From contig DASZZN010000012.1 in assembly GCA_035544955.1 (NCBI GenBank), positions 154,685-218,684 on the forward strand: a stretch of 64,000 nucleotides of DNA, read 5' to 3'. A program made the translations under genes and the position numbers. The stretch comes from Candidatus Dormiibacterota bacterium (GTDB taxonomy: Bacteria > Chloroflexota > Dormibacteria > CF-121). Under the pieces are notes generated by a model, which saw nothing but the letters and a program-made list of their open reading frames with translations, ran no database searches and had not been told where the DNA came from. Positions 6,929 to 36,700 of this stretch are shown here, piece after piece. Each line of letters begins with the position of its first letter. The first letter of the stretch is position 1.

Positions 6929-8031
6929 ACCCGCGTTACCAGGTCGTTACTCAGCTCGCTGAGTCGCCGAACCCCGAGCAGGGTCATCGAGACCTCCATC
7001 TCCTCACGCAGCATCGCCAGCATGCGACTCACGGCATCCGCGCCGCCGACCGCCAGCGCATAGAGAAAAGGCCGCCCGATCAGCACGCCTTTTGCCCCCA
7101 AGGAGAGGGCCTTGAGGACGTCGGTGCCACGCCGAATGCCGCCATCCATGAGCACCGGAATGTCGCGGCCGACCGCGTCGACCACCTCGGGTAGCGCGTC
7201 GAGGCTGGCAATCGCGTAGTCGAGCTGACGTCCGCCGTGGTTGCTCACGATCAGCCCGCGCGCGCCCGCCTCGACCGCGTGGCGGGCATCGTCGGAGCGA
7301 ACGATGCCCTTGACCATCACCGGAAGCGAGGTCCTGGCGACGAGCCATTCGAGGTCGGCCCAGCCAAGGCCGGGATGGGTGTTGGCATTCACGTTCTGCG
7401 CGAACGGATCCGGGCCTTCGTCGGGGTCCGCTCGACGCCGGTCGTCGAGATTGGCGTAGCGAAGCCCCTGCGGCAGGCTGAAGGCGTTGCGGATGTCCCG
7501 CTCGCGTCGCCCGGTCTTGGGGAGGTCGACGGTCAGCAGGATCGCGGAGTAGCCGGCATCGACGGCGCGCTCGACGAAGCCGGCGCTCACCGCCCGCTCC
7601 GCGTGCATGTAGAGCTGGAACCAGCGGGGCCCGCTTGCGGCGGCAGCGACCTCTTCGATGGCGGCGCTCGCCAGCGTGCTGAGGGCATAGGCGATGCCTG
7701 CCTCCGATGCCGCCCGGTAGGCGGCCAGCTCGCCATCGGGATGGGCCATCCGCTGGATCGCGGTGGGCGCCAGGTGGACTGGCATCCGGAAGCGCTGGCC
7801 GAACAACTCGCTGCTCAGGTCGGTGTGGTCCGTGGACGCCAGGACCTTGAAGCGGAACCGATAGCGGGCAAAGGCCTCGCGGTTACCCCGAAGCGCCGCT
7901 TCGTCCTCGGAGCCGCCGGCGATGTAGTCATAGATGCCTTGCGGAAGGACCGCCCGAGCCGCCGGCTCGAAGTCATCCAGCTTGAGCGGAGGTGCCGGCC
8001 GGGTCTTTTTGTCGACCATCGAATCGGCCAT
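6925..8031 (-). CDS. lldD: FMN-dependent alpha-hydroxy acid dehydrogenase/oxidase (L-lactate dehydrogenase/glycolate oxidase family)
   Basis: Motifs match the FMN alpha-hydroxyacid oxidising family (e.g. SNHGGRQLD, the VLMDGGIRRGTDVLKALSLGA FMN-binding region). The start is taken at MADSMVDKK rather than the ORF-track upstream Met. Confidence 0.8.
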   Translation of the reverse strand: MADSMVDKKTRPAPPLKLDDFEPAARAVLPQGIYDYIAGGSEDEAALRGNREAFARYRFRFKVLASTDHTDLSSELFGQRFRMPVHLAPTAIQRMAHPDGELAAYRAASEAGIAYALSTLASAAIEEVAAAASGPRWFQLYMHAERAVSAGFVERAVDAGYSAILLTVDLPKTGRRERDIRNAFSLPQGLRYANLDDRRRADPDEGPDPFAQNVNANTHPGLGWADLEWLVARTSLPVMVKGIVRSDDARHAVEAGARGLIVSNHGGRQLDYAIASLDALPEVVDAVGRDIPVLMDGGIRRGTDVLKALSLGAKGVLIGRPFLYALAVGGADAVSRMLAMLREEMEVSMTLLGVRRLSELSNDLVTRV

Positions 8032-8129
8032 GGCGCCAATTGTGGCGTTTTGGGGCCGCCCTGTGTAACGTGTACGGAAGCGCCTGTACGAAAGCGTCGG
8101 ATGCTGCAAGGAAGGGAGGTTTCCTCGTT

Positions 8130-10046
8130 ATGAGTGGGGCCATCGCGATCCTGGCGTTTCATCAGGTCTACCAGCCGCTCGGCGACAACATTTTTCTCTC
8201 GGCGATCGTCGCAGGCATTCCTCTATACATCTTGTTCGTGATGCTGGCAGTGCTACGGCTGCCTGCCTGGATGTCGGCCTTGACGGCGATGCTCTCCGCG
8301 GCCGTGCTCGCGGCGCTGGTCTGGGGCATGCCACTCGGCCTTGACCTTTCGGCGACCACCGAGGGCATGGCGAATGGGTTGTGGCCCATCAGCTGGATCG
8401 TGCTCAACGCGGTCTTCTTCCACAACCTGACCATCGCCAGCGGCGACTTCGACGTGATCCGCCGTTCGCTCACCCGATTGACGGGGGACCGTCGCGTCCA
8501 GGCCCTGCTGGTGGCGTTTTGCTTCGGCGCCCTGATGGAAGGCATTGCCGGTTTCGGTGCCCCGGTTGCGATCTCGGCGGCCATCCTCGCCAGCCTCGGA
8601 TTCGAGCCGATCAGCGCGGCGGTGCTCGCCCTGCTCGCCAACACGGCGCCCGTGGCCTTCGGGTCGATCGGCATCCCGATCGTCACGCTCGGTCTGCTGA
8701 CCGCGCCCATCATCGGCCACAGCGCGAACGATCAAACGCAGGTCACCCTGGCACTCTCCGCCATGGTTGGCCGGCAACTTCCGATCTTCTCGGTCATCAT
8801 CCCGGCCTTCTTGATCGTCGTCCTCGCGGGTTGGAAGCGCATGGTCGAAGTGCTGCCGGCCGTCCTCACCGCGGGCGTCGTCTTTGCGGTTGTCCAGTTC
8901 CTGGTCTCGAACTTCATCGGTCCAGAGTTGACAGACGTGCTCGCCGCGCTGGTCTCGATGGCGGCTGTCGCTCTCTTACTTCGCGTTTGGAAGCCGAGGA
9001 CGTTGTGGGGCTTTGCCGCCGACCGCGCGCCGGTGCCGGGCGCCGCCCCGAGGTTCCGCAGCGTCGGCGCCGCGGTGGCGCAGGTCGCCGATCCGCCTGC
9101 CCGGATCGTGCGCGCCTACATGATGTACGTGATCCTGGTGGTGGTCATCCTCATCGGCCAGATGGGCAACTTGCCGTTCTTTTCCGGCAGCCCTCCCGGC
9201 AACGTGAAGAACGCCCTCCACACACCCGCGAATATCACGGCCGACCTCAAATGCGGCCAGCCGGGATTCGCGCTCTGCCCCAATCCGTGGTTTGGGCCCA
9301 GTCCGGTAAAGGATGCCGGCGCCTTCAAGTTCCCGTTCTGGAGATTCCAGTGGCCCTTCAGCTACGAAGGCACATCGGCCAAACCGAAGGCCCTGATCAG
9401 CCAGGAACCGACGATCGTGACCAAGTCCACGCCCTATCCCATCACCTTTACCTGGGACTTCTTATCGGCAGCCGGCAGTCTCGTGCTCTTCGCGTCGATC
9501 ATCGCCTTTATCGTGATGGCAATCCGGGGTGCGCCGCTGCGCCTGTTCTTTACGACCTACGGGCGTACGCTACGCCAGCTAGCCCTGCCCATCATGACGA
9601 TCGCCTTCATCCTGGGCATCGCCGCCGTCATGAACTTCTCGGGCATGACGTCTACGCTTGCCCTCCTCATGGCAAAAGCCGGAGGGTTCTTCCCCTTCTT
9701 CTCGGCGGTCATCGGTGCGCTGGGCGTCTTCTTGACCGGCAGCGACACCGCATCCAACACGCTCTTCGGCCCGATGCAAGCCCATACCGCCCAGCAAATC
9801 GTCATCGGCGGGCACCATCTGAGTCCTGTCCTGACGGCGGGCACCAACTCGTCGGGGGGTGTCATGGGCAAGATGATCAGCCCGCAAAACCTGTCGGTGG
9901 GCGCGGCGGGCGTCAACCGAGTGGGCTCGGAGGGCGAGATCTTCCGCCGTACCATCGGCTACAGCCTGATCCTCACGGCCGCCGTCGGCATCGTCGCCAT
10001 GATCGAGGTCTACCTGATCCCCGGGATCATCCCAACCTTCGGTTAG
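8130..10046 (+). CDS. lctP: L-lactate permease (LctP family)
   Basis: About 640 aa polytopic membrane protein with LctP-like blocks (GFGAPVAISAAIL, FGSIGIPIV). RBS AAGGGAGG lies about 10 nt upstream of the ATG at 8130. Confidence 0.8.
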   Translation: MSGAIAILAFHQVYQPLGDNIFLSAIVAGIPLYILFVMLAVLRLPAWMSALTAMLSAAVLAALVWGMPLGLDLSATTEGMANGLWPISWIVLNAVFFHNLTIASGDFDVIRRSLTRLTGDRRVQALLVAFCFGALMEGIAGFGAPVAISAAILASLGFEPISAAVLALLANTAPVAFGSIGIPIVTLGLLTAPIIGHSANDQTQVTLALSAMVGRQLPIFSVIIPAFLIVVLAGWKRMVEVLPAVLTAGVVFAVVQFLVSNFIGPELTDVLAALVSMAAVALLLRVWKPRTLWGFAADRAPVPGAAPRFRSVGAAVAQVADPPARIVRAYMMYVILVVVILIGQMGNLPFFSGSPPGNVKNALHTPANITADLKCGQPGFALCPNPWFGPSPVKDAGAFKFPFWRFQWPFSYEGTSAKPKALISQEPTIVTKSTPYPITFTWDFLSAAGSLVLFASIIAFIVMAIRGAPLRLFFTTYGRTLRQLALPIMTIAFILGIAAVMNFSGMTSTLALLMAKAGGFFPFFSAVIGALGVFLTGSDTASNTLFGPMQAHTAQQIVIGGHHLSPVLTAGTNSSGGVMGKMISPQNLSVGAAGVNRVGSEGEIFRRTIGYSLILTAAVGIVAMIEVYLIPGIIPTFG

Positions 10047-10070: not shown

Positions 10071-10107
10071 CTCCCTCCCCCGCGCACGGGGGAGGGTCGG
10101 GGTGGGG
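10071..10107. repeat. palindromic G4-type repeat element, copy A (intergenic, lctP-glcD)
   Basis: CTCCCTCCCCC-GCGCAC-GGGGGAGGG-TCGGGGTGGGG. A C-rich arm is complementary to a G-rich arm and is followed by extra G-tracts, giving four G-runs. Near-identical copies are at 12346 and 19672. Confidence 0.6.
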
Positions 10108-10123
10108 CGTACGCTTTAGCAAA

Positions 10124-11605
10124 ATGGAAGCGGTGGATCGCGATCAGCTACTGGGCCGGATTCGCGGCGTGGTTGGCGATCACTACGCGTTCGCGGATCC
10201 CTACGAGATGCGGCTCTACCAGTACGACGCCAGTCCCGAGACGGCGCTGCCGGATATCGTCGTCATCCCGGGGACGGCGAAGGAGGTCGCGCAGCTTGTC
10301 AAGATGTGCTGCGACGCCGGCGTGCCGATCACGGCGCGCTCAGGCGCCAGCAGCCTGGCCGGGGGCACCGTCCCGGTCGAGGGCGGAGTCGTCATCACGT
10401 TCGCCCGGATGGACCGCATCCTCGAGATCGATATCGACAACCTGCGCGCGGTGGTCCAGCCCGGTGTCGTCAACCTGGCGCTGAGTCAGGCGCTCAAACC
10501 GCATGGCTACTACTACGCACCCGACCCGTCGAGCCAGGGTGCTTGCACCATAGGAGGGAACGTCGCCACCAACGCCGGTGGCCCGCACACCCTCCTCTAC
10601 GGCGTCACGGTCAACCACGTCACCGGCCTCGAGGTCGCCCTCGCCAGCGGCGAGCTGGTGCAAGTCGGCGGGCGCAACGTCGCGGAGGCCATCGGCTATG
10701 ACCTGACAGGTGTCCTGGTCGGATCGGAGGGAACGATGGGGGTCGTCACGCGGGTCTGGGTGAAGATCCAGCCCCTGCCGCCGGTGCAAAAGACCTTGAT
10801 GGCTGTCTACCCCGATGTTGCCTCCGCGAGCAACGCCGTGTCCGCCATCGTGCGTACCGGGATCCTTCCCGCCGCCATGGAGATGATGGACAAGCTCTCC
10901 ATCCAGGCGATCGAAGCGGCATCGCACGCGGGCTATCCACTGGATGCCGGCGCGGTCTTGCTGCTCGAAGTCGACGGCACGCCAGAGGTCGCCGAGGAGC
11001 TCGGCGAGCGGATGGCGAAGGTCTGTCGCGAGAACGGTGCCACCGAGGTGCGTGTCGCGCGCAACGAGGGGGAACGCCAGGCACTCTGGAAAGGCCGCAA
11101 GGGGGCGTTCTCCGCGATGGGTCGCCTATCGTCCGATTTCTACGTGATGGATGGCGTCGTGCCGCGAACCAAGTTGCCCGAGACGCTCGCGAAGATCGAC
11201 GCCATCAGCGAGCGAACCGGCTTCAAGATTTGCAATGTCTTCCATGCGGGCGACGGCAATCTTCACCCCCTCGTCCTTTTCGACGCCTTCAAAGCCGGCC
11301 AGTATGAAGCGGTGCTGCGGATCGGGGACGAGATCCTGAAACTCTGCGCGGATGCCGGCGGATCGGTGACCGGGGAACACGGAATCGGGCTGGAAAAGCG
11401 TGAGAACATCCGCTACGTCTTTTCCGACGACGACCTCGAGGTGATGGATCGTGTTCGCCGTGTTTTCGATCCGCAACGCCTGATGAACCCCGGAAAAGTG
11501 TTTCCCAGCAAAGGCGCCAAGCCTCCACGTGTGCCGATACCGGAAGGATCCCCTCGACGACAGCCGCGCGCCGCCGTTCCCGCGGGAGACGACGTGTGGG
11601 TGTGA
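10124..11605 (+). CDS. glcD: glycolate oxidase subunit GlcD (FAD-linked oxidase)
   Basis: FAD-binding PCMH-domain motifs (RSGASSLAGG, GEHGIGL). ATG at 10124 (MEAVDRDQLL). The ORF track's upstream 5' extension is out of frame with lctP. Confidence 0.85.
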   Translation: MEAVDRDQLLGRIRGVVGDHYAFADPYEMRLYQYDASPETALPDIVVIPGTAKEVAQLVKMCCDAGVPITARSGASSLAGGTVPVEGGVVITFARMDRILEIDIDNLRAVVQPGVVNLALSQALKPHGYYYAPDPSSQGACTIGGNVATNAGGPHTLLYGVTVNHVTGLEVALASGELVQVGGRNVAEAIGYDLTGVLVGSEGTMGVVTRVWVKIQPLPPVQKTLMAVYPDVASASNAVSAIVRTGILPAAMEMMDKLSIQAIEAASHAGYPLDAGAVLLLEVDGTPEVAEELGERMAKVCRENGATEVRVARNEGERQALWKGRKGAFSAMGRLSSDFYVMDGVVPRTKLPETLAKIDAISERTGFKICNVFHAGDGNLHPLVLFDAFKAGQYEAVLRIGDEILKLCADAGGSVTGEHGIGLEKRENIRYVFSDDDLEVMDRVRRVFDPQRLMNPGKVFPSKGAKPPRVPIPEGSPRRQPRAAVPAGDDVWV

Positions 11606-12885
11606 AGGCGCGTCCGCAAGCATTGCCCGGGCAAGAGATCACCGTCGACGAGCAACGAACCTTCAGCGTGGATGGTCTGTTGCCGTCGACCGTGATGCGC
11701 CCGAACGATGCCGGTGAAGCCGCGCGTGACCTGCACGCCTGTGACGAGGGGCCGGCCGCCGTCGTGGTCTGGGGCGGAGGGACGCAGATGCGGCTGGGCG
11801 CCCCACCCAGGCGGTACGAGGTTGCGTTTTCGACCGAACGGATGACGCGTCTGCTCGAGTACGAGCCGGCCGACCTCACCTGCCGAGTCGAGGCAGGGAT
11901 GCGGCTCAGCGACCTGCAGGCGGCGCTGCGGGCCCAGGGTCAGAGGCTCCCGCTCGATCCACCGCATCCCGAACACGCGACGGTCGGCGGGATGGTCGCA
12001 GCCAACACCAACGGCCTTACCCGCGGGCGCTATGGCACCGTCCGCGACTGGGTGATCGGCATCGCAGTGGCGTACCCGTCTGGCAAGGTCGCGCGAGCGG
12101 GCGGCAAGGTTGTCAAGAACGTCGCGGGCTATGACCTGATGAAGCTGCACATCGGCGCGCTCGGCACGCTGGGCGTGGTCGCGGAAGTGAACTTCAAAGT
12201 CCAGGCCCGGCCCGAGGCGGAAGCGACGTTGCTGGCCCACTTCGAGGCGCCGGGGCCCGCCCTCGCGGTGGGGCTCAAGCTGGCCCGCCAGTACCTCGCG
12301 CCCGCTGCCGCCATCGTCCTCGACGGTGAGACCTTTTCCGAGTTTCTCCCTCCCCCGCATGCAGGGGAGGGTCGGGGTGGGGGCCCGGCCCAGTGGACCC
12401 TCGCTCTGAAGCTGGAAGGCTATGCCCGCGAGGTCGATGCGGCCAAGGACGTGGCCATTGGGTTCATCCACGAGTCCGGCGGCGTTGTCGATGAACCGGG
12501 GATCCCGCCCTCTTTCTGGGACGCCGCCAGGGACTGGTCCGCTCCCGCGGACGAGGGGGTGGTGCTTCGCGCCGTCGTTCCTCTTAACTCAAGCCAAAAC
12601 TTGATCGCGGCCGTTCGGGCGGATGCCCGGGTGCTGGCCCAGCCCGCGTCGGGCGTGGTCGACGTCCGGGTGCCGGCGACATCGGCCGCCGGGACCCTCT
12701 CACGGTTGCGCGACGCGGCCGGCGCCGAGGGGCAGGTGGTGGTCGCTGCGGCTCCCGTCGCCGTCAAACAGGCCGTTGACGTCTGGGGACCGCCGCCACC
12801 CGGCTTTCCCATCATGCGTGCCCTCAAGCAGGCCCTCGATCCGAATGGGATCCTCAACCCGGGCCGGTTCGTGGGCGGGATTTAG
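11596..12885 (+). CDS. glcE: glycolate oxidase FAD-binding subunit GlcE
   Basis: FAD-binding-domain protein (VVWGGGTQM, KNVAGYDL) overlapping the glcD stop. Contains an in-frame insertion encoded by repeat copy B (FLPPPHAGEGRGGGP). Confidence 0.8.
   Translation: MGVKARPQALPGQEITVDEQRTFSVDGLLPSTVMRPNDAGEAARDLHACDEGPAAVVVWGGGTQMRLGAPPRRYEVAFSTERMTRLLEYEPADLTCRVEAGMRLSDLQAALRAQGQRLPLDPPHPEHATVGGMVAANTNGLTRGRYGTVRDWVIGIAVAYPSGKVARAGGKVVKNVAGYDLMKLHIGALGTLGVVAEVNFKVQARPEAEATLLAHFEAPGPALAVGLKLARQYLAPAAAIVLDGETFSEFLPPPHAGEGRGGGPAQWTLALKLEGYAREVDAAKDVAIGFIHESGGVVDEPGIPPSFWDAARDWSAPADEGVVLRAVVPLNSSQNLIAAVRADARVLAQPASGVVDVRVPATSAAGTLSRLRDAAGAEGQVVVAAAPVAVKQAVDVWGPPPPGFPIMRALKQALDPNGILNPGRFVGGI
12346..12383. 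repeat. palindromic G4-type repeat element, copy B (in-frame inside glcE)
   Basis: CTCCCTCCCCC-GCATGCA-GGGGAGGG-TCGGGGTGGGGG. Same family and orientation as copies A and C. Confidence 0.6.
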
Positions 12886-12895
12886 TGGTGAGCCG

Positions 12896-14254
12896 ATGAC
12901 CGAACTGTCCACCCTCGACTTCAAGGCGCAGCTCCAGCGGGATGGCGTGCCAACCCCGGCCACCGGCATCGACATGGACCTGGTCCGCGACTGCATTCAC
13001 TGCGGGCTCTGCCTCCCCAAGTGCCCGACCTTCCGCACCCTGCACCACGAGGGCGACAGCCCGCGCGGGCGGATGTGGCAAATCAAAGAGGCGACGCTCG
13101 GCCTGGTGGCCTTCGATGACCCGCGCTTTCAGGCCCACATCTATCAGTGCTTCAACTGCCGTGCTTGCGAAACCGCCTGCCCGTCCGGCGTCCAGTTCGG
13201 AACCGTGATGGAGATGGCTCGTGCGAAGACCCCACCCCAGAATCGCCGCGACCGGATGGTGCGGGCCGTGCTCCTCAACGGGTTGCTGCCGCATCCGCGT
13301 CGCTTGAAGATCGCCGGCTGGCTCTACCGCGCCACGCGCGCGCTGCGGCTGTCTGCGCTCTTACGCCGGAGCGGCGCCTGGAAGGTCCTGCCTCTGGGCA
13401 AGTTTGCGGCCTTCCCGCCCGTGGGTGATACGAGTCCGTATCGGACGCCACTGCCTGCGCTGACTCCGGCGCAGGGCGCCCGTCGCGCCCGCGTCGGCCT
13501 GCTGACCGGCTGTGTCCAAGACGAGATGTTCCGGGGCACGAATCGCCGCACCGCGCTCGCCCTCGCGCGCAACGGCTGCGACGTGATCGTGCCATCGGCG
13601 CGCGTGTGCTGCGGCGCCCTGGCCTCGCACGCCGGGGAGGCGCAGACCGCCGAGCACCTCGCCGGCCTGACCATGGACGCTTTTGGCGGCCCGGGCCTCG
13701 ACGCGGTGGTCGTCAACGCTGCGGGCTGCGGCTCGAACATGAAGGAGTACGAGGTGCAGCTCCGCAATGACGCCGGGCGCCGGGAGGCCACGCCGGCTTT
13801 CTCCAAGACGGTGAAGGATGCCTCGGAGTTCCTGATCGCGCTCGGCCTCCAACCACCGACTCGCGCCATCCGCCTCAAAGTCGCCTACCAGGACCCGTGC
13901 CACCTGTTGCACGGCCAGAAGGTGCACCGGCAGCCGAGACAGGTCCTCGCCATGATTCCCGGCATCGAGCTCGTCGAGATGAAGGAGTCAGATTGGTGTT
14001 GCGGCTCGGCTGGTGTCTACAACCTGACCCACCCGGAGATCTCCGAAGAGGCGCTCGGTTGGAAGGTGCGGAACATCATCGATTGCGGTGCGCAAGTGAT
14101 CGCATCGGCCAACCCCGGGTGCGTCCTTCAGGTTGGGATGGGGCTGCAGCGCGCGGGCCACGACGTTCCCGTCGTTCATGTCATGGACCTGCTGGGCTGG
14201 GCGTACGGCGACGATCAGCAGCGCCCGCCGATCGTCCGCCGGGCGATGGCGTGA
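12896..14254 (+). CDS. glcF: glycolate oxidase iron-sulfur subunit GlcF
   Basis: Two ferredoxin-type 4Fe-4S motifs (CIHCGLCLPKCP, CFNCRACETACP) and C-terminal CCG domains. ATG at 12896 (MTELSTLDF). Confidence 0.8.
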   Translation: MTELSTLDFKAQLQRDGVPTPATGIDMDLVRDCIHCGLCLPKCPTFRTLHHEGDSPRGRMWQIKEATLGLVAFDDPRFQAHIYQCFNCRACETACPSGVQFGTVMEMARAKTPPQNRRDRMVRAVLLNGLLPHPRRLKIAGWLYRATRALRLSALLRRSGAWKVLPLGKFAAFPPVGDTSPYRTPLPALTPAQGARRARVGLLTGCVQDEMFRGTNRRTALALARNGCDVIVPSARVCCGALASHAGEAQTAEHLAGLTMDAFGGPGLDAVVVNAAGCGSNMKEYEVQLRNDAGRREATPAFSKTVKDASEFLIALGLQPPTRAIRLKVAYQDPCHLLHGQKVHRQPRQVLAMIPGIELVEMKESDWCCGSAGVYNLTHPEISEEALGWKVRNIIDCGAQVIASANPGCVLQVGMGLQRAGHDVPVVHVMDLLGWAYGDDQQRPPIVRRAMA

Positions 14255-15303
14255 GGGAGGTGACGCTCGATCATCAGCCCGCCTTCGACGATCCCTGGCT
14301 CGATCAGCTGGCCACCCGCTTATGGTCGAAGCCGGAGTTTTCGATGGTCCCGATCGACCTCGAGGAGGTGCCGGCACAGCCGTACGCCGGTCGTCGCCTC
14401 GACGACCAGGGACCTCGGGTCGTGTTCTTCGGCATCCCGTCGGACTACGGGACCGCATTTCTGCTGCACCTGATCGAAAAGCGCGTCAACCTCGTGGCCG
14501 TTGTCTGCAGCACGCGCTGGCAACGCACTCACCCCAAGGCCGACTTGATCGCGCGAATTGCCGGGTATCTCGGCCGTCCGGTGGAGGTGACGGCCGACGC
14601 TAACTCGGATGCGTTTGTCCGCTGCCTCAGTGCCTACGAGCCCGACATCGTCGTCATGGCCAGCTTCGACCAGATCCTCGCGGCGCAGACGCTGGCCGTC
14701 CCGACCCGCGGCTGGCTCAACGTCCACCCGTCGCTGCTTCCCCGCCACCGTGGCCCAGAGCCGATCTACTGGACGATCGTCAATGGCGACCGGGAGGCCG
14801 GCATCACCGTCCACCAGACCGTGCCGCGGATCGACGCCGGGCCGATTCTGGCTCAACGGCGGGTCGAGGTTTACGACGAGGACACCGCGGGCACGCTCAG
14901 CAAACGGCTGGTGACGGAAGGCCTCGGCGCCCTTGACGAGACGCTGGCGCGACTGGAGGCTGGCCGGGCCGAGGGCATCGTTCCCCAGGCGGGCAGCGGG
15001 AGCTATGAGCCACCGGTCCGCCAGGTCGGGCTCGACTGGGACCAGCCGTTCGAGCAGATCGAGCGGCTGGTGCGTGCGGGCGACCCGGACCAGCCCCCCT
15101 TCTTCACCTATCGAGGCCGGCGCCGCTATGTCTACGGGATCCGAAGGGTGCGAGCCCGCTCCCGCGAAGGCCCTGGCGTCATTTCACCGCTTCCCGCAGG
15201 AGAGATGCTGGCGGCGGCAAAAGACACCGTCGTGGCGGTCCGCTGGCGGCCGGTCGGGCACACCCACGCGCTCCGCCCGCTGGCCAAACAGCAATTTCCC
15301 TAG
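14251..15303 (+). CDS. formyltransferase-family protein (methionyl-tRNA formyltransferase-like)
   Basis: Formyl-transferase signature HPSLLPRHRGPEPIYWTIVNGDREAGITVH. GTG start overlapping the glcF stop. Start uncertain. Confidence 0.6.
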   Translation: MREVTLDHQPAFDDPWLDQLATRLWSKPEFSMVPIDLEEVPAQPYAGRRLDDQGPRVVFFGIPSDYGTAFLLHLIEKRVNLVAVVCSTRWQRTHPKADLIARIAGYLGRPVEVTADANSDAFVRCLSAYEPDIVVMASFDQILAAQTLAVPTRGWLNVHPSLLPRHRGPEPIYWTIVNGDREAGITVHQTVPRIDAGPILAQRRVEVYDEDTAGTLSKRLVTEGLGALDETLARLEAGRAEGIVPQAGSGSYEPPVRQVGLDWDQPFEQIERLVRAGDPDQPPFFTYRGRRRYVYGIRRVRARSREGPGVISPLPAGEMLAAAKDTVVAVRWRPVGHTHALRPLAKQQFP

Positions 15304-15359
15304 CCGGCGTCACCGCTCCGTTACAGATCGAATCTGACCGAATTCGCGGGGGTTGGCCT

Positions 15360-15365
15360 TATAAT
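15360..15365 (+). promoter_or_regulatory. consensus -10 hexamer TATAAT, 9 nt upstream of the hesB-like ATG (leaderless mRNA)
   Basis: TATAAT at 15360-15365 and ATG at 15375. There is no room for a Shine-Dalgarno sequence. Confidence 0.5.
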
Positions 15366-15374
15366 GACTTCAAT

Positions 15375-15767
15375 ATGGCTCAGGAAATGATCGAACAAGA
15401 CACCCAACTGATCAGTATTACGGACTCCGCCCTCACACAGTTGCGTGACCTCTTGCAGAAGCAGGGACGCCCGGAGATGGGCCTGCGCGTCTTCGTCCAG
15501 CCAGGCGGCTGCTCGGGCATGTCCTATGGCATGGGCTTCGAGGATCGCCCCGAAGACGGCGACGCGATCAGCAACGTCGGTGGCGTGCGGCTGTTTGTCG
15601 ACTCGGTCAGCGCGCAGTACATCAAGGGTGCCGAGATCGATTTCGTTGACAGCCTGATGGGCGGCGGTTTTACGGTGCACAACCCCAACGCCGTCTCGAG
15701 CTGCTCATGCGGTAGCTCGTTCGACACCGGCGGCGACGCCGGCACCGCTCGCGGCTGCAGCCACTAG
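15375..15767 (+). CDS. HesB/IscA-family iron-sulfur cluster insertion protein
   Basis: 130 aa with the conserved Cys triad (GGCSG ... SCSCGSSF) of A-type carriers. Confidence 0.8.
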   Translation: MAQEMIEQDTQLISITDSALTQLRDLLQKQGRPEMGLRVFVQPGGCSGMSYGMGFEDRPEDGDAISNVGGVRLFVDSVSAQYIKGAEIDFVDSLMGGGFTVHNPNAVSSCSCGSSFDTGGDAGTARGCSH

Positions 15768-15908
15768 ACCCAGAGCCCCGCACCGACGACGCGTTTTCAT
15801 CACTGTGAAACCGTGTCAGAAAATGAGTGCTGTTCGGGAGCATTTTTCACTCTCCTCGTGGCTTGACCGCGCCGCCATCCGGCCTTACGCTGATAGCCCC
15901 TGAGGGAG

Positions 15909-16340
15909 ATGATGGCGCCCCAGCCCCGCGTCCTGATGGTCGAAGATCATCCGGACATTGCTGATCTCTATCAGCTCAAGCTTCAACTCGAGGGTTATCG
16001 CGTCGCCGTCGCGTCGGACGGTGCCGTCGGGCTGAGCATGGCCCGCTCCCTGATGCCCGACCTCATCCTGCTCGATATCCATATGGCGCAGCTCGACGGG
16101 CTGCAGGTGCTCGCCGCGCTGCGCGAGGACAAGGCCACCGACGAAGTCCCGGTCATCGTCTGCAGCGAAGATGACAGCCCGCAGCTGATCCAGGAGGCGC
16201 ACCGACTGGGCGCGGTCGCCTACCTGGTGAAAGTGAATCTTTTGCCCAGTCGCCTCAGCCAGACCGTTGGCGATGTGCTGGGCCAACGGGGCGAGTTCAC
16301 CATCCAGGCCGGCCGCCCCGGTGCCCGGGAAGCGTCCTGA
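15909..16340 (+). CDS. single-domain response regulator (REC only)
   Basis: CheY-like receiver: VLMVEDHPD, phospho-acceptor region DLILLDIHMAQLDG, conserved K in YLVK. Confidence 0.7.
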   Translation: MMAPQPRVLMVEDHPDIADLYQLKLQLEGYRVAVASDGAVGLSMARSLMPDLILLDIHMAQLDGLQVLAALREDKATDEVPVIVCSEDDSPQLIQEAHRLGAVAYLVKVNLLPSRLSQTVGDVLGQRGEFTIQAGRPGAREAS

Positions 16341-16413
16341 CCCGCGCAAAGTCTTAGCTCCCTCTTAGCTGGCCATCATCGTTTCGTAAGGGTGCACCAT
16401 CCATGATGAGGTC

Positions 16414-17280
16414 GTGATCGCGGAGCCTTTCGGCGCGCCAGAGCCGCCTTCAAGCCCGCCACCGCCGCCGCCACCGTCGGCGGCACCGCGAGGTGGTGGT
16501 CCGGGCTCTCGGACCGTGCTCCTGACGGCCGTGGTCGTGATCGGCGGACTCGCCGGCGGCGTGCTGGGCGCGGAGGCGGTCATCAGCCGCCTGCCTGCGG
16601 CAGCCGCCCCTTCAGCGAGCTCGAGTACGACATCGTCATCGACGACCAGCACAGTCGCCGCGCAGCCGTTGACCGCCGCCGCGATCTACCAGAAGGCCGC
16701 GCCGGGGGTGGTGACCATCACCACCGAGCTTGCTCGCCGCGGTCGGGTCGGCGAGGGCACCGGATCGGGAATCGTGCTCGATACCGCCGGCAACATCCTG
16801 ACCAATGAGCATGTGATATCCGGGGCGAGCCAGATCCAGGTGACGTTCAGCGACGGCAAAACGGTGGCTGCCACAGTGGCCGGGTCGAGCACCAGCGCCG
16901 ACCTGGCGGTCGTTCACGTTTCGGTGGCGGCGTCGAGCCTGCACCCGCTCGCGCTCGGGGACTCGAACACGGTTCGCGTTGGCGACGCGGCATATGCCAT
17001 CGGCGCCCCCTTCGGACTCGCCGAAACGATGACGTCGGGTGTCATCTCCGGGCTCAATCGGAGTAATCAGAGCACCGGGCTCACCGGCCTGATCCAGACC
17101 GACGCGCCAATCAACCCCGGGAACTCGGGTGGCGCATTGCTGAACTCGCTTGGTCAGGTGGTGGGCATCAACGATTCCATTGAGAGCCCCGTTGCCGGCA
17201 ATGTGGGCGTCGGATTCGCTATCCCGATCAACGCCGCCAAGAAGCTCCTGACCACGCTCGAGGGTGGCGCGAACCAGTAA
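16414..17280 (+). CDS. trypsin-like serine protease (S1C/HtrA-like, no PDZ)
   Basis: Catalytic motifs TNEHV, DLAV and GNSGGAL. N-terminal Pro-rich and Ser/Thr-rich segment after a TM helix. GTG start. Confidence 0.75.
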   Translation: MIAEPFGAPEPPSSPPPPPPPSAAPRGGGPGSRTVLLTAVVVIGGLAGGVLGAEAVISRLPAAAAPSASSSTTSSSTTSTVAAQPLTAAAIYQKAAPGVVTITTELARRGRVGEGTGSGIVLDTAGNILTNEHVISGASQIQVTFSDGKTVAATVAGSSTSADLAVVHVSVAASSLHPLALGDSNTVRVGDAAYAIGAPFGLAETMTSGVISGLNRSNQSTGLTGLIQTDAPINPGNSGGALLNSLGQVVGINDSIESPVAGNVGVGFAIPINAAKKLLTTLEGGANQ

Positions 17281-17334
17281 CGTTAGCGAATTCCCATCAT
17301 CGCGTTCGTCATCTTCCTGGTCATCGCCGTCCTG

Positions 17335-17589
17335 GTGATTAATCCTGCCGGTATTGGCCGGCGAGTCTTTTCTCCTTACTACGCCTACATCGATCACATG
17401 CCCCGCACGCTTCGCCTTGGCTGGCAGGGCGTGACGCTGCTGATCGCGGTGCTGTTTCTCGCGTCGACGCTATTTCCCGCTCAGGTCAACGCGTTATTGC
17501 GGCTCGCTAACCCCTGGGGTGGGTTGCTTCTGTTTTTCGTCGCCGTCATCATCTTCGTCGGGATCGTTGGACAACGGCCGCGTCGCTAA
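17335..17589 (+). CDS. small hypothetical membrane protein
   Basis: 84 aa with two predicted TM helices. GTG start. An in-frame hydrophobic stretch lies upstream after a TAG, so the start is uncertain. Confidence 0.3.
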   Translation: MINPAGIGRRVFSPYYAYIDHMPRTLRLGWQGVTLLIAVLFLASTLFPAQVNALLRLANPWGGLLLFFVAVIIFVGIVGQRPRR

Positions 17590-17604
17590 CCGAGGATTCC
17601 TGAG

Positions 17605-18129
17605 CTACGGCTCGAGGATGTGGACCGCAGTGAGGTTCCGGTAAAGCTCGTCGAAATCGAGCCCGTAGCCGACGACAAACTCGTTGGGGATGTCAAACCC
17701 CTTGTAGGAGATCGGGACCGGCGTGATGCGGCGTTCCTCTTTGTTGAGAAGGACGCAGAGCTTCAGCGACTTCGGTCGATGGCGCTGGACATGGTCGAAC
17801 AAGAACGAGGTCGTCAACCCAGTGTCGATGATGTCCTCCACCATCAAGACGTCACGCCCGGTGACGTCCATGGTGAGGTCCTTGAGCAGTTGGACGTGTC
17901 CCGATGATTGGGTTTCGGCACCGTAGCTGCTGACCGCGACGTAATCGAAGTTCACGGGGACTGTCAGATGGCGGCTGAGGTCCGTCGCGAAACAGACTGA
18001 GCCCTTGAGAACCGAGAGCAGGATGAGCGGTCGCTCCAGGCCCTGGTAGTCCCGGGAAACTTGCTCAGCCATCTCGCGCACGCATTTCTGGATGGCATCG
18101 CCGCTGATCAGCTCCCGTCCTAGCTTCAA
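17605..18129 (-). CDS. hpt: hypoxanthine-guanine phosphoribosyltransferase
   Basis: PRPP-binding motif VLMVEDIIDTGLT and typical 174 aa length. Confidence 0.85.
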   Translation of the reverse strand: MKLGRELISGDAIQKCVREMAEQVSRDYQGLERPLILLSVLKGSVCFATDLSRHLTVPVNFDYVAVSSYGAETQSSGHVQLLKDLTMDVTGRDVLMVEDIIDTGLTTSFLFDHVQRHRPKSLKLCVLLNKEERRITPVPISYKGFDIPNEFVVGYGLDFDELYRNLTAVHILEP

Positions 18130-18153
18130 TTTGGTCTCGAGGATGGCATCACT

Positions 18154-18669
18154 TTACCCGGTCGGCGCGATCAGAAAGATCCAGATATCCCAGGAGACAT
18201 GACTGATGATCAGCGGAGCGAGGCGTTGTTCTTTCGCATAGAGCGCCCCCCAGTAGAGGCCGGCTGTGGCCGCGGCACCGGTAAGCGTCAGGTTTGCGGA
18301 CACGAGGTGGACGCCGCCGTAGATCGACGACGCGATCAGTGTGCCGCGGACGCGTCCGTAGCGTCGCATCAGGCCTCGCTGAACCAGACCTCGCCAGAAC
18401 AGTTCCTCGCCAGGGCCAATGACAAGACCGAGCGCCGTTGCGATCGCGGGGCGTGGGCCCGCCGTCCGCAGCTCGTAGATCCGGCCGATCTCGCGATCGC
18501 CGGCGGGCATGATTCGCCGCGCCATCCGGTCGCCGACCTGGAAGATTGCGTACAGTCCAGCCGCCGAACCCAACCCCTTGGCGAAATCCCGGAGGCGCGG
18601 CCGTTCGCGGCGCAGGGCGGGCTCGGCGGCAAGTGCGTAGGCGCCCAGGCCGCCAACCCCAAGCGTCAT
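18154..18669 (-). CDS. CPBP-family intramembrane metalloprotease (CAAX protease/Abi)
   Basis: EExxxR motif (EELFWRG) and second motif (HLVSAN) in a polytopic membrane protein. Confidence 0.7.
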   Translation of the reverse strand: MTLGVGGLGAYALAAEPALRRERPRLRDFAKGLGSAAGLYAIFQVGDRMARRIMPAGDREIGRIYELRTAGPRPAIATALGLVIGPGEELFWRGLVQRGLMRRYGRVRGTLIASSIYGGVHLVSANLTLTGAAATAGLYWGALYAKEQRLAPLIISHVSWDIWIFLIAPTG

Positions 18670-18752
18670 CCGGAGCCAGAACTGCGACCGCGGTCCGCGG
18701 AAGGCGGCCGTCCAGACCGCGGCGGCCAGGCCCAGGCCGGCAATAACGCGCT

Positions 18753-20720
18753 TCAGCGGACTGCCGATCCCGCGACCAGGCCGACCAGCAGCAGGACTCC
18801 GAAGGCGCTGTGCAGGCGGGCCGTCATGAGGTCGATCATCGCGATCGCGCGCAGGTGGCCCTCGGCTCCGCGCTCGGCATCACGAAGGATCAACGCCATC
18901 AGCGGCAGGCTGAACAGCGTGAGGAGCGCGAGCTTCGGCAGGGCGCCGACCATCACCGCCAGGCCGACGGCGACGTAGGCCCCGAGAACGAGCATCACGT
19001 AAACCCAGTGCGCCGCCTCCCGGCCGACCTGGGCCGAGAAGGTTGTAAATCCGTGCCGCGTGTCCTCCGCGACGTCGCGCCACTCATTCCCGTGCAGGAT
19101 CGCCGTCACCAGCAGTCCGACCGGGAGCGAGACGATCAGCAGGTTCGGGTCGAAGGCGCCGGTCACCGCGAAATATGAACCCACAACCATCAGGGGCCCC
19201 ATCAAGAGGAAGACAAGAGGCAAACCGAGCGCCCGGTACTTGTACTGGAAGGGTGGGGCGGTATAGAAGTAGCCGCCGATGAAGCCGATCAATCCGAGCA
19301 GCACGATGGGCCAGCCCCGCTGGAGCAGGAGGAAGATGCCCATCAGGAGGGCAAGGATGAATCCCGACCAGGCGACCACGAAGGCATCGCGCTCGGTGAT
19401 CCGGCCCTTGAGGATCGCCATCGACATCCGGGGAGACGTGATCGAGTCGATTCCGTGCCGAACGTCATAGATCTCGTTGATCACGTTGGTTTCGATATGC
19501 AAACCGAGCGCCCCGAGCAACGCGGCGACGAAGAGCGGCCAGTGCATCCGTCCCTGGCTGAGCGCGATCGCGCCGCCCACCGAGACCGGCAACACCGATG
19601 CGGTGAAGCTGAACGGGCGGACGACCTCCCAGGCCCCGCCCAGCCTACGACCAATCCCGGGCCTTTCTTTCCCTCCCCCTCTGGGGGAGGGCAGGGAGGG
19701 GGCTGTGGCGGCCGTCACCGACTCAGAGGCGTAGGCGACCGCGGCGTCGAGGACCGCGTCGACCTGGGCCGTCTCCTGCAGGATCGGCTGCAGCAGCGGA
19801 ACATCCATGCCGGCGTCATGGTAGGCAGCCGCACGCGCCGCCACGTCTTTCACGGAGCCACAGAGGATGAAGGCGTCCAGCAGCTCGTCGGGGATCAGTT
19901 CTCCAGCGCGGTGATAATCCTCAGCTCGCCAGGCGGTCGCGATCTGGCTGCGCAGCGCCGGGTCGAATCCCGCGCGCTTCATCGAGATGTCGCTGAGAAC
20001 TGAGATCATGTAAATGACGAACGGCTCGCGCTTGGCCCGGTTCAGCGCTTCCTGCCGGCTGCTGTCGAAGAGGCAGAGGAGGTAGCCACGGAAATCGATG
20101 TCGCTGGCCGAGCGACCATGGGCCGAGGCACTCTCGAGGACGCGGGCGCGCATCTTCTGGAAGGCCGGCAGCGATTCCGCGGGACGGGCCAGGTAGCCGT
20201 CGGCTTTCTCGCCGCAGAGGTCCAGGAAGGGTGTGCGGTAGGCCGCGATGTAGATCGGGATCCGGTGCGGCGGTTGAAACATCGGTTGGAGCGGAGGGAC
20301 TTTGTCATTGAGCGTCAGCGGCTGGCCGTTCCATAGCCGGCGGATCTGGTCGATCGATTCCGAAACGCGGGCGACCGTGTCGTCGTAGGGGATCGCCATC
20401 TGCGCAAGCCGCAGCGGCAAGCCGCTTCCCAGGGCCAGCGTGACCCGGCGCGGCGCGAGATCATCGAGGGCCGACATCGTCATCGCCACCACGACCGGAT
20501 GGCGGGTGTACGGGTTGAGGGCGCCGGCACCCAGTCCGATGCGGCGCGTTTCCATCCCCATCGCGCTCAGGTAGGTAATGGGATCGCGCTCGAAATAGCT
20601 GTCGTGGACCCAGATGGAATCGAGGCCGAGGTCCTCCGCCCGGCGCGCCCATGCCGCGGCTTCGCGCACGTCGCCCCGGGCCGCTAGCCCGATTCCGACT
20701 GGGCGGCCAAGCTCTGCCAT
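18753..20720 (-). CDS. fusion protein: N-terminal LLM-class (luciferase-like, probably F420/flavin-dependent) oxidoreductase and C-terminal UbiA-family (MenA-like) prenyltransferase
   Basis: The N-terminal 330 aa match LLM flavin/F420 oxidoreductases (MAELGRPVGIGL ... SIWVHDSYFERDP). The C-terminal 290 aa are a polytopic UbiA prenyltransferase with NEIYDVRHGID (NxxxDxxxxxD). The two are joined by a linker (PSLPSPRGGGKERPG) encoded by repeat copy C. The true ATG is at 20720; the ORF-track 5' extension overlaps ubiE out of frame. Confidence 0.7.
   Translation of the reverse strand: MAELGRPVGIGLAARGDVREAAAWARRAEDLGLDSIWVHDSYFERDPITYLSAMGMETRRIGLGAGALNPYTRHPVVVAMTMSALDDLAPRRVTLALGSGLPLRLAQMAIPYDDTVARVSESIDQIRRLWNGQPLTLNDKVPPLQPMFQPPHRIPIYIAAYRTPFLDLCGEKADGYLARPAESLPAFQKMRARVLESASAHGRSASDIDFRGYLLCLFDSSRQEALNRAKREPFVIYMISVLSDISMKRAGFDPALRSQIATAWRAEDYHRAGELIPDELLDAFILCGSVKDVAARAAAYHDAGMDVPLLQPILQETAQVDAVLDAAVAYASESVTAATAPSLPSPRGGGKERPGIGRRLGGAWEVVRPFSFTASVLPVSVGGAIALSQGRMHWPLFVAALLGALGLHIETNVINEIYDVRHGIDSITSPRMSMAILKGRITERDAFVVAWSGFILALLMGIFLLLQRGWPIVLLGLIGFIGGYFYTAPPFQYKYRALGLPLVFLLMGPLMVVGSYFAVTGAFDPNLLIVSLPVGLLVTAILHGNEWRDVAEDTRHGFTTFSAQVGREAAHWVYVMLVLGAYVAVGLAVMVGALPKLALLTLFSLPLMALILRDAERGAEGHLRAIAMIDLMTARLHSAFGVLLLVGLVAGSAVR
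19672..19703. repeat. palindromic G4-type repeat element, copy C (inside the fusion-gene linker)
   Basis: CCCTCCCCC-TCT-GGGGGAGGG-CAGGGAGGGGG on the plus strand. Same orientation as copies A and B although the host gene is on the minus strand. Confidence 0.55.
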
Positions 20721-35571: not shown

Positions 35572-35640
35572 GCAATGGGCTGGGTCGACCTACCCAGTCG
35601 GCGGAAGAGGTGGCGAAAGCTGCCTCTTCAGCTTTTCCAG
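35572..35640 (+). ncRNA. candidate small or antisense RNA (two hairpins and a T-run downstream of the consensus promoter)
   Basis: Stems CTGGGT/ACCCAG (35580-35597) and GAAGAGG/CCTCTTC (35604-35629), followed by AGCTTTTCC. The second hairpin overlaps the last codons of the DUF3800-like gene in antisense. Confidence 0.3.
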
Positions 35641-36674: not shown

Positions 36675-36700
36675 CCTCGTGGTGTTCCAGCCTGACTCCC

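What the first reader, a model, noticed from the sequence alone, without database searches (positions are those of the whole stretch)
10071..19703. Family of palindromic, G-quadruplex-type miniature repeats, two of them in-frame inside genes
Three copies of a roughly 35-40 bp element are present: A at 10071-10107, B at 12346-12383 and C at 19672-19703. The consensus is YCCCTCCCCC, a loop of 3-7 nt, GGGGGAGGG, then (TC/CA)GGG(GT/AG)GGGG. The C-rich and G-rich arms can pair as a hairpin, and the G-rich half has four G-tracts, which is a canonical G-quadruplex motif. All copies have the same plus-strand orientation whatever the host gene's strand. One is intergenic and two are inserted in-frame in coding sequence. 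This behaviour resembles Rickettsia RPE-type or other in-frame miniature elements.
Basis: seen in the sequence. Interest (0 to 1): 0.55.

Follow-up and report, generated by a model that had tools for sequence, protein, structure and literature searches.

The report
BoxC-type triplex-forming repeats, some in genes
The three short repeats are real copies of an already described bacterial repeat (E. coli BoxC, also called PIT or TMECO) whose three segments can fold into a hairpin plus a third strand; here they occur in a Dormibacterota genome, and two of them sit in frame in protein loops.

Summary
Three roughly 36-nt elements lie at 10071-10108, 12346-12383 and 19671-19702, all on the + strand. 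Controls predict about 0.02 such motifs in the window.

Copy A is intergenic, between lctP and glcD. Copy B is in frame in GlcE. Copy C is in frame, antisense, in the linker of an LLM-UbiA fusion protein.

The G-quadruplex and RPE-like readings are only partly right. The element has a pyrimidine arm CCCTCCCCC, a purine arm GGGGGAGGG, and a third segment GGG(T/A)GGGGG that is the mirror image of the purine arm. That is the architecture of a class II purine-motif intrastrand triplex. It fits the published E. coli BoxC / PIT / TMECO pattern with one mismatch in the third stem (Holder et al. 2015; Hoyne & Maher).

The same element occurs in more than ten phyla. In 131 copies from other genomes, the unconstrained third segment follows the mirror rule.

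In 68 syntenic Dormibacterota-like loci, almost all copies sit at the same three sites. They occur in either orientation, singly or doubled, palindromic, decayed or absent. The shared + orientation in this window is therefore incidental.

No copy in the window has a stop codon in any of the six frames. In-frame copies simply add Pro/Gly-rich loops.

Verdict: a new member of a known kind. How the element spreads remains unknown.

The parts
10071..10108 (+). Copy A, intergenic. CT, Y stem 10073-10081 CCCTCCCCC, loop 10082-10087, R stem 10088-10096 GGGGGAGGG, loop 10097-10099 TCG, third (reverse-Hoogsteen) segment 10100-10108 GGGTGGGGC.
   Evidence: The orthologous spacer is occupied in 52 of 68 related loci, in either orientation.
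12346..12383 (+). Copy B, in frame in glcE, sense strand. Encodes L251-G263, LPPPHAGEGRGGG. Y stem 12348-12356, loop GCATGC, R stem 12363-12371 (one mismatch), loop TCG, third segment 12375-12383 GGGTGGGGG.
   Evidence: The predicted loop lies between a helix and a strand, with low pLDDT.
19671..19702 (+). Copy C, in frame on the antisense strand of the LLM-UbiA fusion gene. The gene strand reads APSLPSPRGGG. Y stem 19671-19679, loop TCT, R stem 19683-19691, loop CA, third segment 19694-19702 GGGAGGGGG.
7992..10046 (+). L-lactate permease gene (longest ORF; the true start is probably downstream). Its stop codon lies 24 nt before copy A.
10124..11605 (+). glcD-like FAD-linked oxidase gene. Its start codon lies 16 nt after copy A.
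11596..12885 (+). glcE-like FAD-binding subunit gene, host of copy B.
18753..20720 (-). Gene for a 655-aa fusion of a luciferase-like (LLM) oxidoreductase and a UbiA prenyltransferase. Copy C lies in its hypervariable inter-domain linker.

Best explanation
What it is: the three sequences are copies of a dispersed, non-coding-by-origin repeat of the BoxC / PIT / TMECO kind.

Structure:
- A short A/T-rich leader, usually ending in CT.
- A 9-nt pyrimidine arm (CCCTCCCCC).
- A 3-7 nt loop.
- The complementary purine arm (GGGGGAGGG).
- A 2-3 nt loop.
- A third segment (GGG[T/A]GGGGG) that mirrors the purine arm.

Folding: when the DNA is single-stranded, as in replication, repair or transcription, the first two arms form a GC hairpin. 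The third segment can then fold back antiparallel onto the purine arm through G*G:C and T*A:T or A*A:T triplets. This is a class II purine-motif intrastrand triplex. G-quadruplex is a competing fold of the G-rich half.

Behaviour: it acts as a selfish or neutral, structure-prone element, not as a gene-specific regulator. In this lineage it has settled at a few permissive spots:
- the lctP-glcD spacer;
- a surface loop of GlcE;
- the LLM-UbiA inter-domain linker.
At these spots it is gained, duplicated, converted to or from a full palindrome (which changes its apparent orientation), eroded and lost.

Coding copies: the element has no stop codon in any frame. In-frame copies survive as Pro/Gly/Ser-rich flexible peptides.

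Shown here:
- the architecture and the mirror rule;
- the cross-phylum distribution;
- in-frame copies with orthologues that lack them;
- turnover at the three sites.

Taken from the literature on the E. coli member:
- triplex folding in vitro;
- no promoter or terminator activity;
- association with local sequence variability.

Inferred:
- that folding in single-stranded DNA drives the turnover, for example through replication stalling and quasi-palindrome template switching;
- that there is no dedicated function at these three loci.
For: Architecture:
- Only these three class II motifs occur in the window, against 0.017 expected.

Mirror rule (third segment left free apart from its first GGG):
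- In 131 copies from other genomes, 97 are perfect GGGNGGGGG and 22 have one mismatch.
- Among those 119, N is T in 74, A in 35, G in 6 and C in 4.
- The G-run before N is 3-4 long in 129 copies. The G-run after N is 5 or more in 97 copies. This is the mirror of GGGGG-A-GGG, not a direct copy of it.

Family:
- The published TMECO pattern is CCCTCNCCC N3-6 GGGNGAGGG N3 GGGNGAGGG, with one mismatch allowed.
- NMR shows triplex. There is no promoter or terminator activity.
- Second loops TTA and CCG are reported; here the loops are TTG, CCG, CTG, TCG and CAG (PMC4666352).

Distribution:
- These cover Alpha-, Beta-, Gamma- and Deltaproteobacteria, Chloroflexota, Dormibacterota, Planctomycetota, Nitrospirota, Bacteroidota, Actinomycetota, Cyanobacteria and Thermotogae.
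- The flanks are unrelated.

Coding tolerance:
- All six frames are open in A, B and C. The same holds for 65 of 103 copies from other genomes, against 28% of random 38-mers.
- GlcE orthologues of 411 and 420 aa lack the insert.
- Pfam domains lie on both sides of (in one case around) in-frame copies in GlnE, a xanthine dehydrogenase subunit, an E2 acyltransferase and PrmC in four other lineages.
- The GlcE peptide falls in a low-confidence coil.

Turnover:
- In 68 syntenic loci (850 kb), site A is +:37, -:8, ++:5, +-:2, none:16. Site B is +:14, none:39. Site C is +:4, -:4, ++:2, none:7. Only one copy lies elsewhere.
- Near-full palindromes, eroded copies and empty sites are all visible.
- One clean filled/empty pair shows an insert of about 48 nt with no target-site duplication.
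Against: - Triplex folding of this sequence variant was not measured. With RNA parameters a G4 is predicted to be as stable as, or more stable than, the hairpin.
- For the E. coli element, in vivo DMS footprinting did not detect a stable triplex (PMC4666352).
- Nothing here shows how the element reaches new sites or new phyla.
- The concentration at three sites could instead mean target specificity of an unknown enzyme, or a local function.
- The three stems are intact in many orthologous copies while loops and flanks differ. This could reflect purifying selection rather than recent renewal.
Confidence: 0.72

Rival explanations
1. The element is a G-quadruplex regulatory element, or a G4/hairpin switch. 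The four G-tracts fold into a G4 in DNA or mRNA and control expression of neighbouring or host genes. The C-rich arm acts as a competing partner.
For: - Canonical G4 motifs are present in all three copies, and only one other occurs in 64 kb.
- A G4 is predicted to be competitive with the hairpin.
- A G4-hairpin-duplex switch has been proposed for the same E. coli motif, with CD support (PMC5100583).
- A related archaeal repeat switches from triplex to G4 with K+ and annealing (PMC8044849).
Against: - G4 needs neither the mirror placement of a T or A nor the 3-then-5 G-run asymmetry that copies from other genomes obey.
- NMR of the E. coli element showed triplex, not G4 (PMC4666352).
- Orientation relative to the host gene differs between relatives at the same site. 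Copies are absent, doubled or eroded in close relatives.
- Copy C puts the C-rich strand in the mRNA.
Confidence: 0.1
2. The element is a true miniature mobile element, mobilised in trans by a dedicated enzyme, for example a single-strand HUH/Y1 transposase as for REP/REPIN-RAYT. That enzyme would recognise the folded hairpin/triplex and have target preferences that explain the three hot spots.
For: - The same 36-nt sequence occurs in more than ten phyla with unrelated flanks.
- The boundaries are defined: a conserved CT and A/T-rich leader at the 5' end and a sharp 3' end.
- There is a clean filled/empty site.
- Both orientations and tandem copies recur at the same sites.
Against: - No terminal inverted repeats beyond the hairpin and no target-site duplication were seen.
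- The REP hallmark 5' GTAG is absent.
- No transposase was looked for or found here.
- The E. coli study found no association with mobile genetic elements (PMC4666352).
- Orientation changes can also arise in place through the full-palindrome forms that are observed.
Confidence: 0.2
3. The element is an RNA-level signal in the lctP-glcDEF transcript: a terminator, attenuator or 3'-exonuclease block formed by the strong GC hairpin of copy A. On this view the coding copies are incidental.
For: - Copy A sits between co-directional genes and forms a DNA hairpin of -14.1 kcal/mol (z = -3.0).
- Among intergenic copies in other genomes, the sense orientation is somewhat commoner (33 sense, 19 antisense).
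Against: - No T/U tract follows the hairpin; the G-rich third segment does.
- No Rfam family matches.
- The A-site element is inverted in 8 related loci and absent in 16.
- PIT elements showed no promoter or terminator activity in E. coli (PMC4666352).
Confidence: 0.06
4. The sequences are ordinary low-complexity coding or spacer sequence that looks alike by chance in a 65% G+C genome.
For: The genome is G+C-rich, and Pro/Gly-rich linkers are common.
Against: - Zero to 0.04 matches are expected in shuffles.
- Identical elements occur across phyla.
- Orthologues without the insert exist.
Confidence: 0.01

Closest known systems
E. coli BoxC, also called PIT (potential intrastrand triplex) element or TMECO (Bachellier et al.; Hoyne & Maher 2000/2002; Holder et al. 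2015, PMC4666352)
   Same: - Same three-part design and near-identical stems: CCCTCNCCC, N3-6, GGGNGAGGG, a loop of about 3 nt, then a G-rich mirror stem.
- Comparable second loops: CCG occurs in both; E. coli's other type is TTA, while TTG is common here.
- Many dispersed, highly similar copies.
- Occasional inverted (palindromic) pairs.
- Copy presence varies between close relatives.
   Different: - Here the stems carry one T/A position instead of two (CCCTCCCCC against CCCTCTCCC). The third strand changes in step (GGGTGGGGG against GGGTGAGGG).
- The host is Dormibacterota, not Proteobacteria.
- Two of the three copies are in frame inside genes, whereas the E. coli copies were reported as always intergenic.
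HPGQ motifs, the 'G-quadruplex-hairpin-duplex switch' of E. coli (Kaplan et al. 2016, PMC5100583)
   Same: It is the same E. coli sequence family seen through G4 prediction: a G4 motif with a conserved C-rich segment a few bases upstream.
   Different: That paper treats G4 as the key fold and did not analyse copies in protein-coding regions. The mirror rule found here favours the triplex design as the conserved constraint.
Recurrent PQS of Methanomicrobiaceae archaea (PMC8044849)
   Same: An interspersed G-rich repeat with an adjacent complementary C-rich tract. It showed hairpin/antiparallel triplex in vitro, in equilibrium with G4.
   Different: - The C-rich tract lies 3' of the G-rich part, which is the class I order.
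- The hosts are archaea.
- All copies were reported as intergenic.
Rickettsia palindromic elements (RPE)
   Same: Palindromic repeats that are tolerated in frame inside protein-coding genes.
   Different: From general knowledge: RPEs are about 100-150 bp, A/T-rich and confined to Rickettsia. They have no triplex or G4 architecture. The resemblance is behavioural only.
REP/REPIN elements with RAYT transposases
   Same: Short GC-rich hairpin-forming dispersed repeats. They sometimes occur in inverted pairs and are thought to move through single-stranded DNA.
   Different: - There is no conserved 5' GTAG; the 5' end here is CT after an A/T-rich leader.
- REP has no third mirror segment.
- REP sequences are species-specific, whereas this element is nearly identical across phyla.
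- No RAYT is linked to it.

Membership tests
BoxC / PIT / TMECO intrastrand triplex motif | 9-nt pyrimidine stem CCCTCNCCC | tested here: met
   CCCTCCCCC in A, B and C.
BoxC / PIT / TMECO intrastrand triplex motif | First loop of 3-6 nt followed by the complementary purine stem GGGNGAGGG | tested here: met
   Loops are GCGCAC, GCATGC and TCT. The purine stem GGGGGAGGG is perfect in A and C and has one mismatch in B.
BoxC / PIT / TMECO intrastrand triplex motif | [quoted passage not shown] | tested here: met
   - Window copies: TCG+GGGTGGGGC, TCG+GGGTGGGGG and CA+GGGAGGGGG.
- Each differs from the literal GGGNGAGGG at one position, and that change matches the change in the stems.
- In 131 copies from other genomes, 97 are perfect mirrors; T or A is at the mirror position in 109 of the 119 with at most one mismatch.
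BoxC / PIT / TMECO intrastrand triplex motif | Many dispersed, nearly identical copies with unrelated flanks | tested here: met
   Loops and flanks vary while the stems do not.
BoxC / PIT / TMECO intrastrand triplex motif | Intergenic location (reported as 'always' in E. coli MG1655) | tested here: not met
   B and C are in frame in genes. About 5 of 78 copies from other genomes also lie in ORFs, and 4 of these were verified with Pfam. This is an observation about E. coli rather than a structural criterion.
BoxC / PIT / TMECO intrastrand triplex motif | Forms a stable triplex as single-stranded DNA (CD/NMR) | not testable with these tools
   Only hairpin and G4 energies could be computed.
BoxC / PIT / TMECO intrastrand triplex motif | Loci show raised variability between close relatives | tested here: met
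   Presence, absence, orientation, doubling and erosion all vary at sites A, B and C across 68 syntenic loci. No matched control sites were analysed.
Canonical G-quadruplex motif | Four runs of at least 3 G separated by loops of 1-7 nt | tested here: met
   G4 is favoured when allowed in ViennaRNA with RNA parameters. Actual folding was not testable.
Rickettsia palindromic elements (RPE) | Palindromic element of about 100-150 bp with sequence similarity to an RPE family | tested here: not met
   The element is 32-38 nt long and G+C-rich. The size criterion comes from general knowledge. Sequence similarity to RPE families was not tested.
Rickettsia palindromic elements (RPE) | In-frame insertion in protein-coding genes, with orthologues lacking it | tested here: met
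REP / REPIN (RAYT-associated) | Conserved 5' GTAG tetranucleotide next to an imperfect palindrome | tested here: not met
   5' flank profile: position -2 is C in 68% and never G; position -1 is T in 67%.
REP / REPIN (RAYT-associated) | A cognate RAYT gene in the genome, typically flanked by the repeats | not tested
   Only a 64-kb window of the genome was available. No systematic transposase search was done.
Intrinsic (Rho-independent) terminator | GC-rich hairpin followed by a T/U tract | tested here: not met
   A G-rich segment follows the hairpin in every copy.

The most novel reading that the evidence does not exclude
The BoxC/PIT-type element could be a genuinely mobile, cross-phylum single-stranded-DNA element. 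Its triplex-forming fold would be the recognition or propagation signal for a still unidentified mechanism, either an enzyme or structure-driven template switching. That mechanism would have insertion hot spots and recurrently remodel protein loops and inter-domain linkers: GlcE and LLM-UbiA here, and GlnE, E2 acyltransferase, PrmC and a xanthine dehydrogenase subunit elsewhere. The syntenic Dormibacterota series, with filled, empty, inverted, doubled and palindromic states at three sites, would then be a natural time series of that mechanism.
Probability: 0.3. Interest if true: 0.7.

Novelty: new member of a known kind. Interest (0 to 1): 0.35.

Why it matters
BoxC/PIT elements have been known in E. 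coli since the 1990s, with no agreed function or mode of spread. This locus adds three things.

1. The family extends far beyond Proteobacteria, with almost unchanged stems.
2. The asymmetric stem variant found here gives sequence-level support for the triplex (mirror) constraint. The symmetric E. coli version cannot give that support.
3. Copies can live in frame inside conserved enzymes, always in loops or linkers. The element is therefore a small but recurrent source of protein length variation.

A practical point follows. Annotators and G4-prediction surveys will keep flagging these sites, and they should be recognised as one repeat family rather than as gene-specific G4 regulators.

Tried and rejected
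- Rfam scan of the whole window: only a tRNA matched, and nothing at the elements.
- Literal sequence searches of the paper library for the tail or both arms found nothing relevant. The family was found through the keyword search.
- The idea that the shared + orientation reflects a strand rule was dropped after the census of orthologous sites.
- Apparent 640-740-nt 'insertions' in glcD in some related loci are only the tool joining the GlcD match to the paralogous GlcE match.
- The gene-orientation bias of intergenic copies in other phyla (33 sense, 19 antisense) rests on a crude GC3-based gene call. It is too weak to use.
- The AlphaFold model of GlcE was poor overall (mean pLDDT 53). It was used only for the well-predicted C-terminal half.
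- No search for a RAYT-like or other transposase was attempted. A 64-kb window cannot show absence.
- A peptide search of the protein database for in-frame copies was considered. It was not run because of its cost and because short low-complexity queries have low power.

Full report
**Observation**

| Copy | Leader | Y stem | Loop 1 | R stem | Loop 2 | Third segment |
|---|---|---|---|---|---|---|
| A | CT | 10073-10081 CCCTCCCCC | GCGCAC | 10088-10096 GGGGGAGGG | TCG | 10100-10108 GGGTGGGGC |
| B | CT | 12348-12356 CCCTCCCCC | GCATGC | 12363-12371 AGGGGAGGG | TCG | 12375-12383 GGGTGGGGG |
| C | | 19671-19679 CCCTCCCCC | TCT | 19683-19691 GGGGGAGGG | CA | 19694-19702 GGGAGGGGG |

Chance does not explain them.
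- The hairpin pattern has 2 exact hits against 0 in 100 shuffles.
- The 19-nt tail has 2 hits against 0.04 expected.
- Three of the four canonical G4 motifs in the 64 kb are these copies.
- A general finder for pyrimidine stem, complementary purine stem and mirror third stem returns only these three sites. It gives 0.017 hits per Markov-1 control.

**Context**

The window is 65% G+C. It matches a Candidatus Dormibacteraeota MAG: GlcE and the LLM-UbiA protein are 100% identical to NCBI entries from a 234,798-bp contig.
- Copy A lies in the 77-nt spacer between a lactate permease gene and glcD.
- Copy B is in frame in glcE, where it encodes LPPPHAGEGRGGG.
- Copy C is in frame on the antisense strand of a 655-aa gene. 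That gene fuses a luciferase-like oxidoreductase to a UbiA prenyltransferase. The copy falls in the inter-domain linker, which reads APSLPSPRGGG.

**What it is**

I scanned one genome per species with CCCTCCCCC N3-9 GGGGAGGG NN GGG. My tally from the record titles is:
- about 54 Alphaproteobacteria, 14 Beta-, 11 Gamma- and 6 Delta-type;
- 7 Chloroflexota, 2 Dormibacterota, 6 Planctomycetota and 3 Nitrospirota;
- 3 Actinomycetota, 2 Bacteroidota, 1 cyanobacterium and 1 Thermotogae;
- the remaining 10 are unclassified Proteobacteria or uncultured bacteria.

The flanks are unrelated, but the part of the tail I had left free is conserved. Among 131 copies:
- The third segment is a perfect GGGNGGGGG in 97 and has one mismatch in 22.
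- Among those 119, N is T in 74, A in 35, G in 6 and C in 4.
- The G-run before N is 3-4 long, and the G-run after it is 5 or more in 97 copies.

The third segment is therefore the mirror image of the purine arm GGGGG-A-GGG, with T or A opposite its only A. That is the rule for an antiparallel purine-motif triplex (G*G:C, T*A:T, A*A:T). A G-quadruplex requires none of this.

The literature search led to Holder et al. 2015 (PMC4666352). They describe exactly this design as TMECO. It was earlier called BoxC, and then the PIT element of Hoyne and Maher.
- The pattern is 5'-CCCTCNCCC N3-6 GGGNGAGGG N3 GGGNGAGGG, with one mismatch allowed.
- They found it 3610 times in 262 proteobacterial genomes.
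- NMR showed that it folds as a triplex, not a G4, in single-stranded DNA.
- It has no promoter or terminator activity.
- It is always intergenic in E. coli MG1655.
- It is associated with local sequence variability.

Kaplan et al. 2016 (PMC5100583) described the same E. coli motif as a G4-hairpin-duplex switch. A related archaeal repeat shows a triplex/G4 equilibrium (PMC8044849).

The copies in this window fit the TMECO pattern with a single mismatch in the third stem. That mismatch is compensatory. Where E. coli has CCCTCTCCC / GGGAGAGGG / GGGTGAGGG, this variant has CCCTCCCCC / GGGGGAGGG / GGGTGGGGG.

The element extends a little to the 5' side.
- In copies from other genomes, position -2 is C in 68% and never G. 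Position -1 is T in 67%.
- In Dormibacterota-like copies, an A/T-rich, G-poor leader of 5-7 nt precedes the stem.
- The 3' boundary is sharp.

**Coding copies**

*GlcE.* Relatives with 80-91% identity carry LPPPxAGEGRGGG.
- Some carry the element in another reading frame with a different first loop (SPSPSGGGQGGG). This was confirmed at the DNA level in L124.
- The 420-aa forms have an unrelated loop, and the 411-aa forms have a short one.
- In an AlphaFold model, the encoded peptide (L251-G263) is a low-confidence coil between a helix and a strand. The model is poor overall but good in this domain.

*LLM-UbiA.* The fusion is conserved in the lineage, and its linker is hypervariable. DNA from relatives shows:
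- the element on the sense strand (L126, PPPRAGEGRVG);
- two tandem sense copies (L127);
- a partly deleted remnant in a 95%-identical relative (L128).

*Why this is tolerated.* All three window copies are open in all six frames. So are 63% of copies from other genomes, against 28% of random 38-mers from the same loci.

*Other phyla.* About 5 of 78 copies lie in ORFs. For four of them Pfam domains lie on both sides of, or around, the element:
- GlnE in a planctomycete;
- a xanthine dehydrogenase subunit in a Dehalococcoidia genome;
- an E2 acyltransferase linker in Brevundimonas;
- PrmC in a Phycisphaerae genome.

**Turnover**

A metagenome scan with GlcD returned 80 syntenic loci totalling 859 kb. 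Every class II motif found in them has the same stems. A census of 68 loci with a known glcD start gave the counts below.

| Site | + | - | ++ | +- | none |
|---|---|---|---|---|---|
| A (lctP-glcD spacer) | 37 | 8 | 5 | 2 | 16 |
| B (GlcE loop) | 14 | 0 | 0 | 0 | 39 |
| C (LLM-UbiA linker) | 4 | 4 | 2 | 0 | 7 |

- Only one copy lies anywhere else in those 850 kb.
- The spacers show near-full palindromes, with the third segment mirrored on both sides, in L122, L152, L192, L208 and L136.
- They also show eroded copies and empty sites.
- One clean filled/empty pair lies between the fmt-like gene and the Fe-S gene (L124 against the window and L123). The insert is about 48 nt, replaces 3 nt and has no target-site duplication.
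- The uniform + orientation in this window is therefore incidental.

**Mechanism**

*Shown here:*
- the three-part mirror architecture;
- its conservation across phyla;
- tolerance of in-frame copies;
- rapid gain, loss and flipping at three sites.

*Known for the E. coli member:*
- triplex folding in vitro;
- no promoter or terminator activity;
- local sequence variability.

*Inferred:*
- The fold forms transiently in single-stranded DNA and causes stalling, slippage and template switching.
- Correction of quasi-palindromes by template switching is an established mutational route. It could create the full-palindrome forms, from which either tail can then be lost. That would explain orientation changes in place.
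- A dedicated mobilising enzyme is not excluded (about 0.2).
- A G4-based regulatory role (about 0.1) and an RNA hairpin role for copy A (about 0.06) are less likely. The orientation varies, copies are absent in close relatives, and no U-tract follows the hairpin.
- Computed DNA hairpin energies are -14.1, -9.1 and -10.7 kcal/mol.

**Verdict**

This is a new member of a known kind. Interest is moderate to low for the window itself. It is somewhat higher for three additions:
- the cross-phylum reach of the family;
- the sequence-level support for the triplex rule;
- the recurrent in-frame copies, which the E. coli work did not report.

Noticed in passing
window 35628-37689: A low-G+C stretch (0.55 against about 0.65) holds a DUF3800 protein gene (35628-36674, -) and an ORF with no Pfam match (36701-37480, -). 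It lies directly next to the only tRNA in the window, tRNA-Thr(AGT) at 37614-37689. This may be a small integrated island.
   Followed up: partly
window 38074-41195: Two adjacent Mg-chelatase-like AAA+ genes are present: a ChlD-like gene with a VWA domain (38074-40164) and a ChlI-like gene (40164-41195). Their paralogy explains direct repeats D1 and D4, which are 71-77% identical and about 2.09 kb apart.
   Followed up: partly
window 22619-23110 and 27976-28545: Direct repeats D2, D5 and D20 are 79-93% identical and about 5.4 kb apart. They suggest a duplicated gene or gene segment.
   Followed up: no
L073 (Brevundimonas lutea), E2 acyltransferase ORF: Besides the CCCTCCCCC-type copy, the same E2 protein carries the peptide PFPLEGGRAGDGGG twice in its linkers. 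This looks like a translated sequence variant of the same kind of element.
   Followed up: no
window 10109-10123 and the equivalent spacers in L122-L208: The 15-20 nt before the glcD start codon (GCGTACCCTTTAACAAAATG or GCGTAGGCTTTAAC...) are conserved across nearly all syntenic loci, whatever the state of the repeat upstream. In the empty site of L160 this stretch forms a short palindrome, GGTACGC-G-GCGTACC. It may be a regulatory or ribosome-binding region.
   Followed up: no
window 10097-10099 / 12372-12374; L124 and L125: Copies A and B within one genome tend to share the same second loop: TCG/TCG in the window, CAG/CAG in L124, and CAG/TCA in L125. This hints at concerted evolution or gene conversion between copies 2.3 kb apart. 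The sample is too small to judge.
   Followed up: partly
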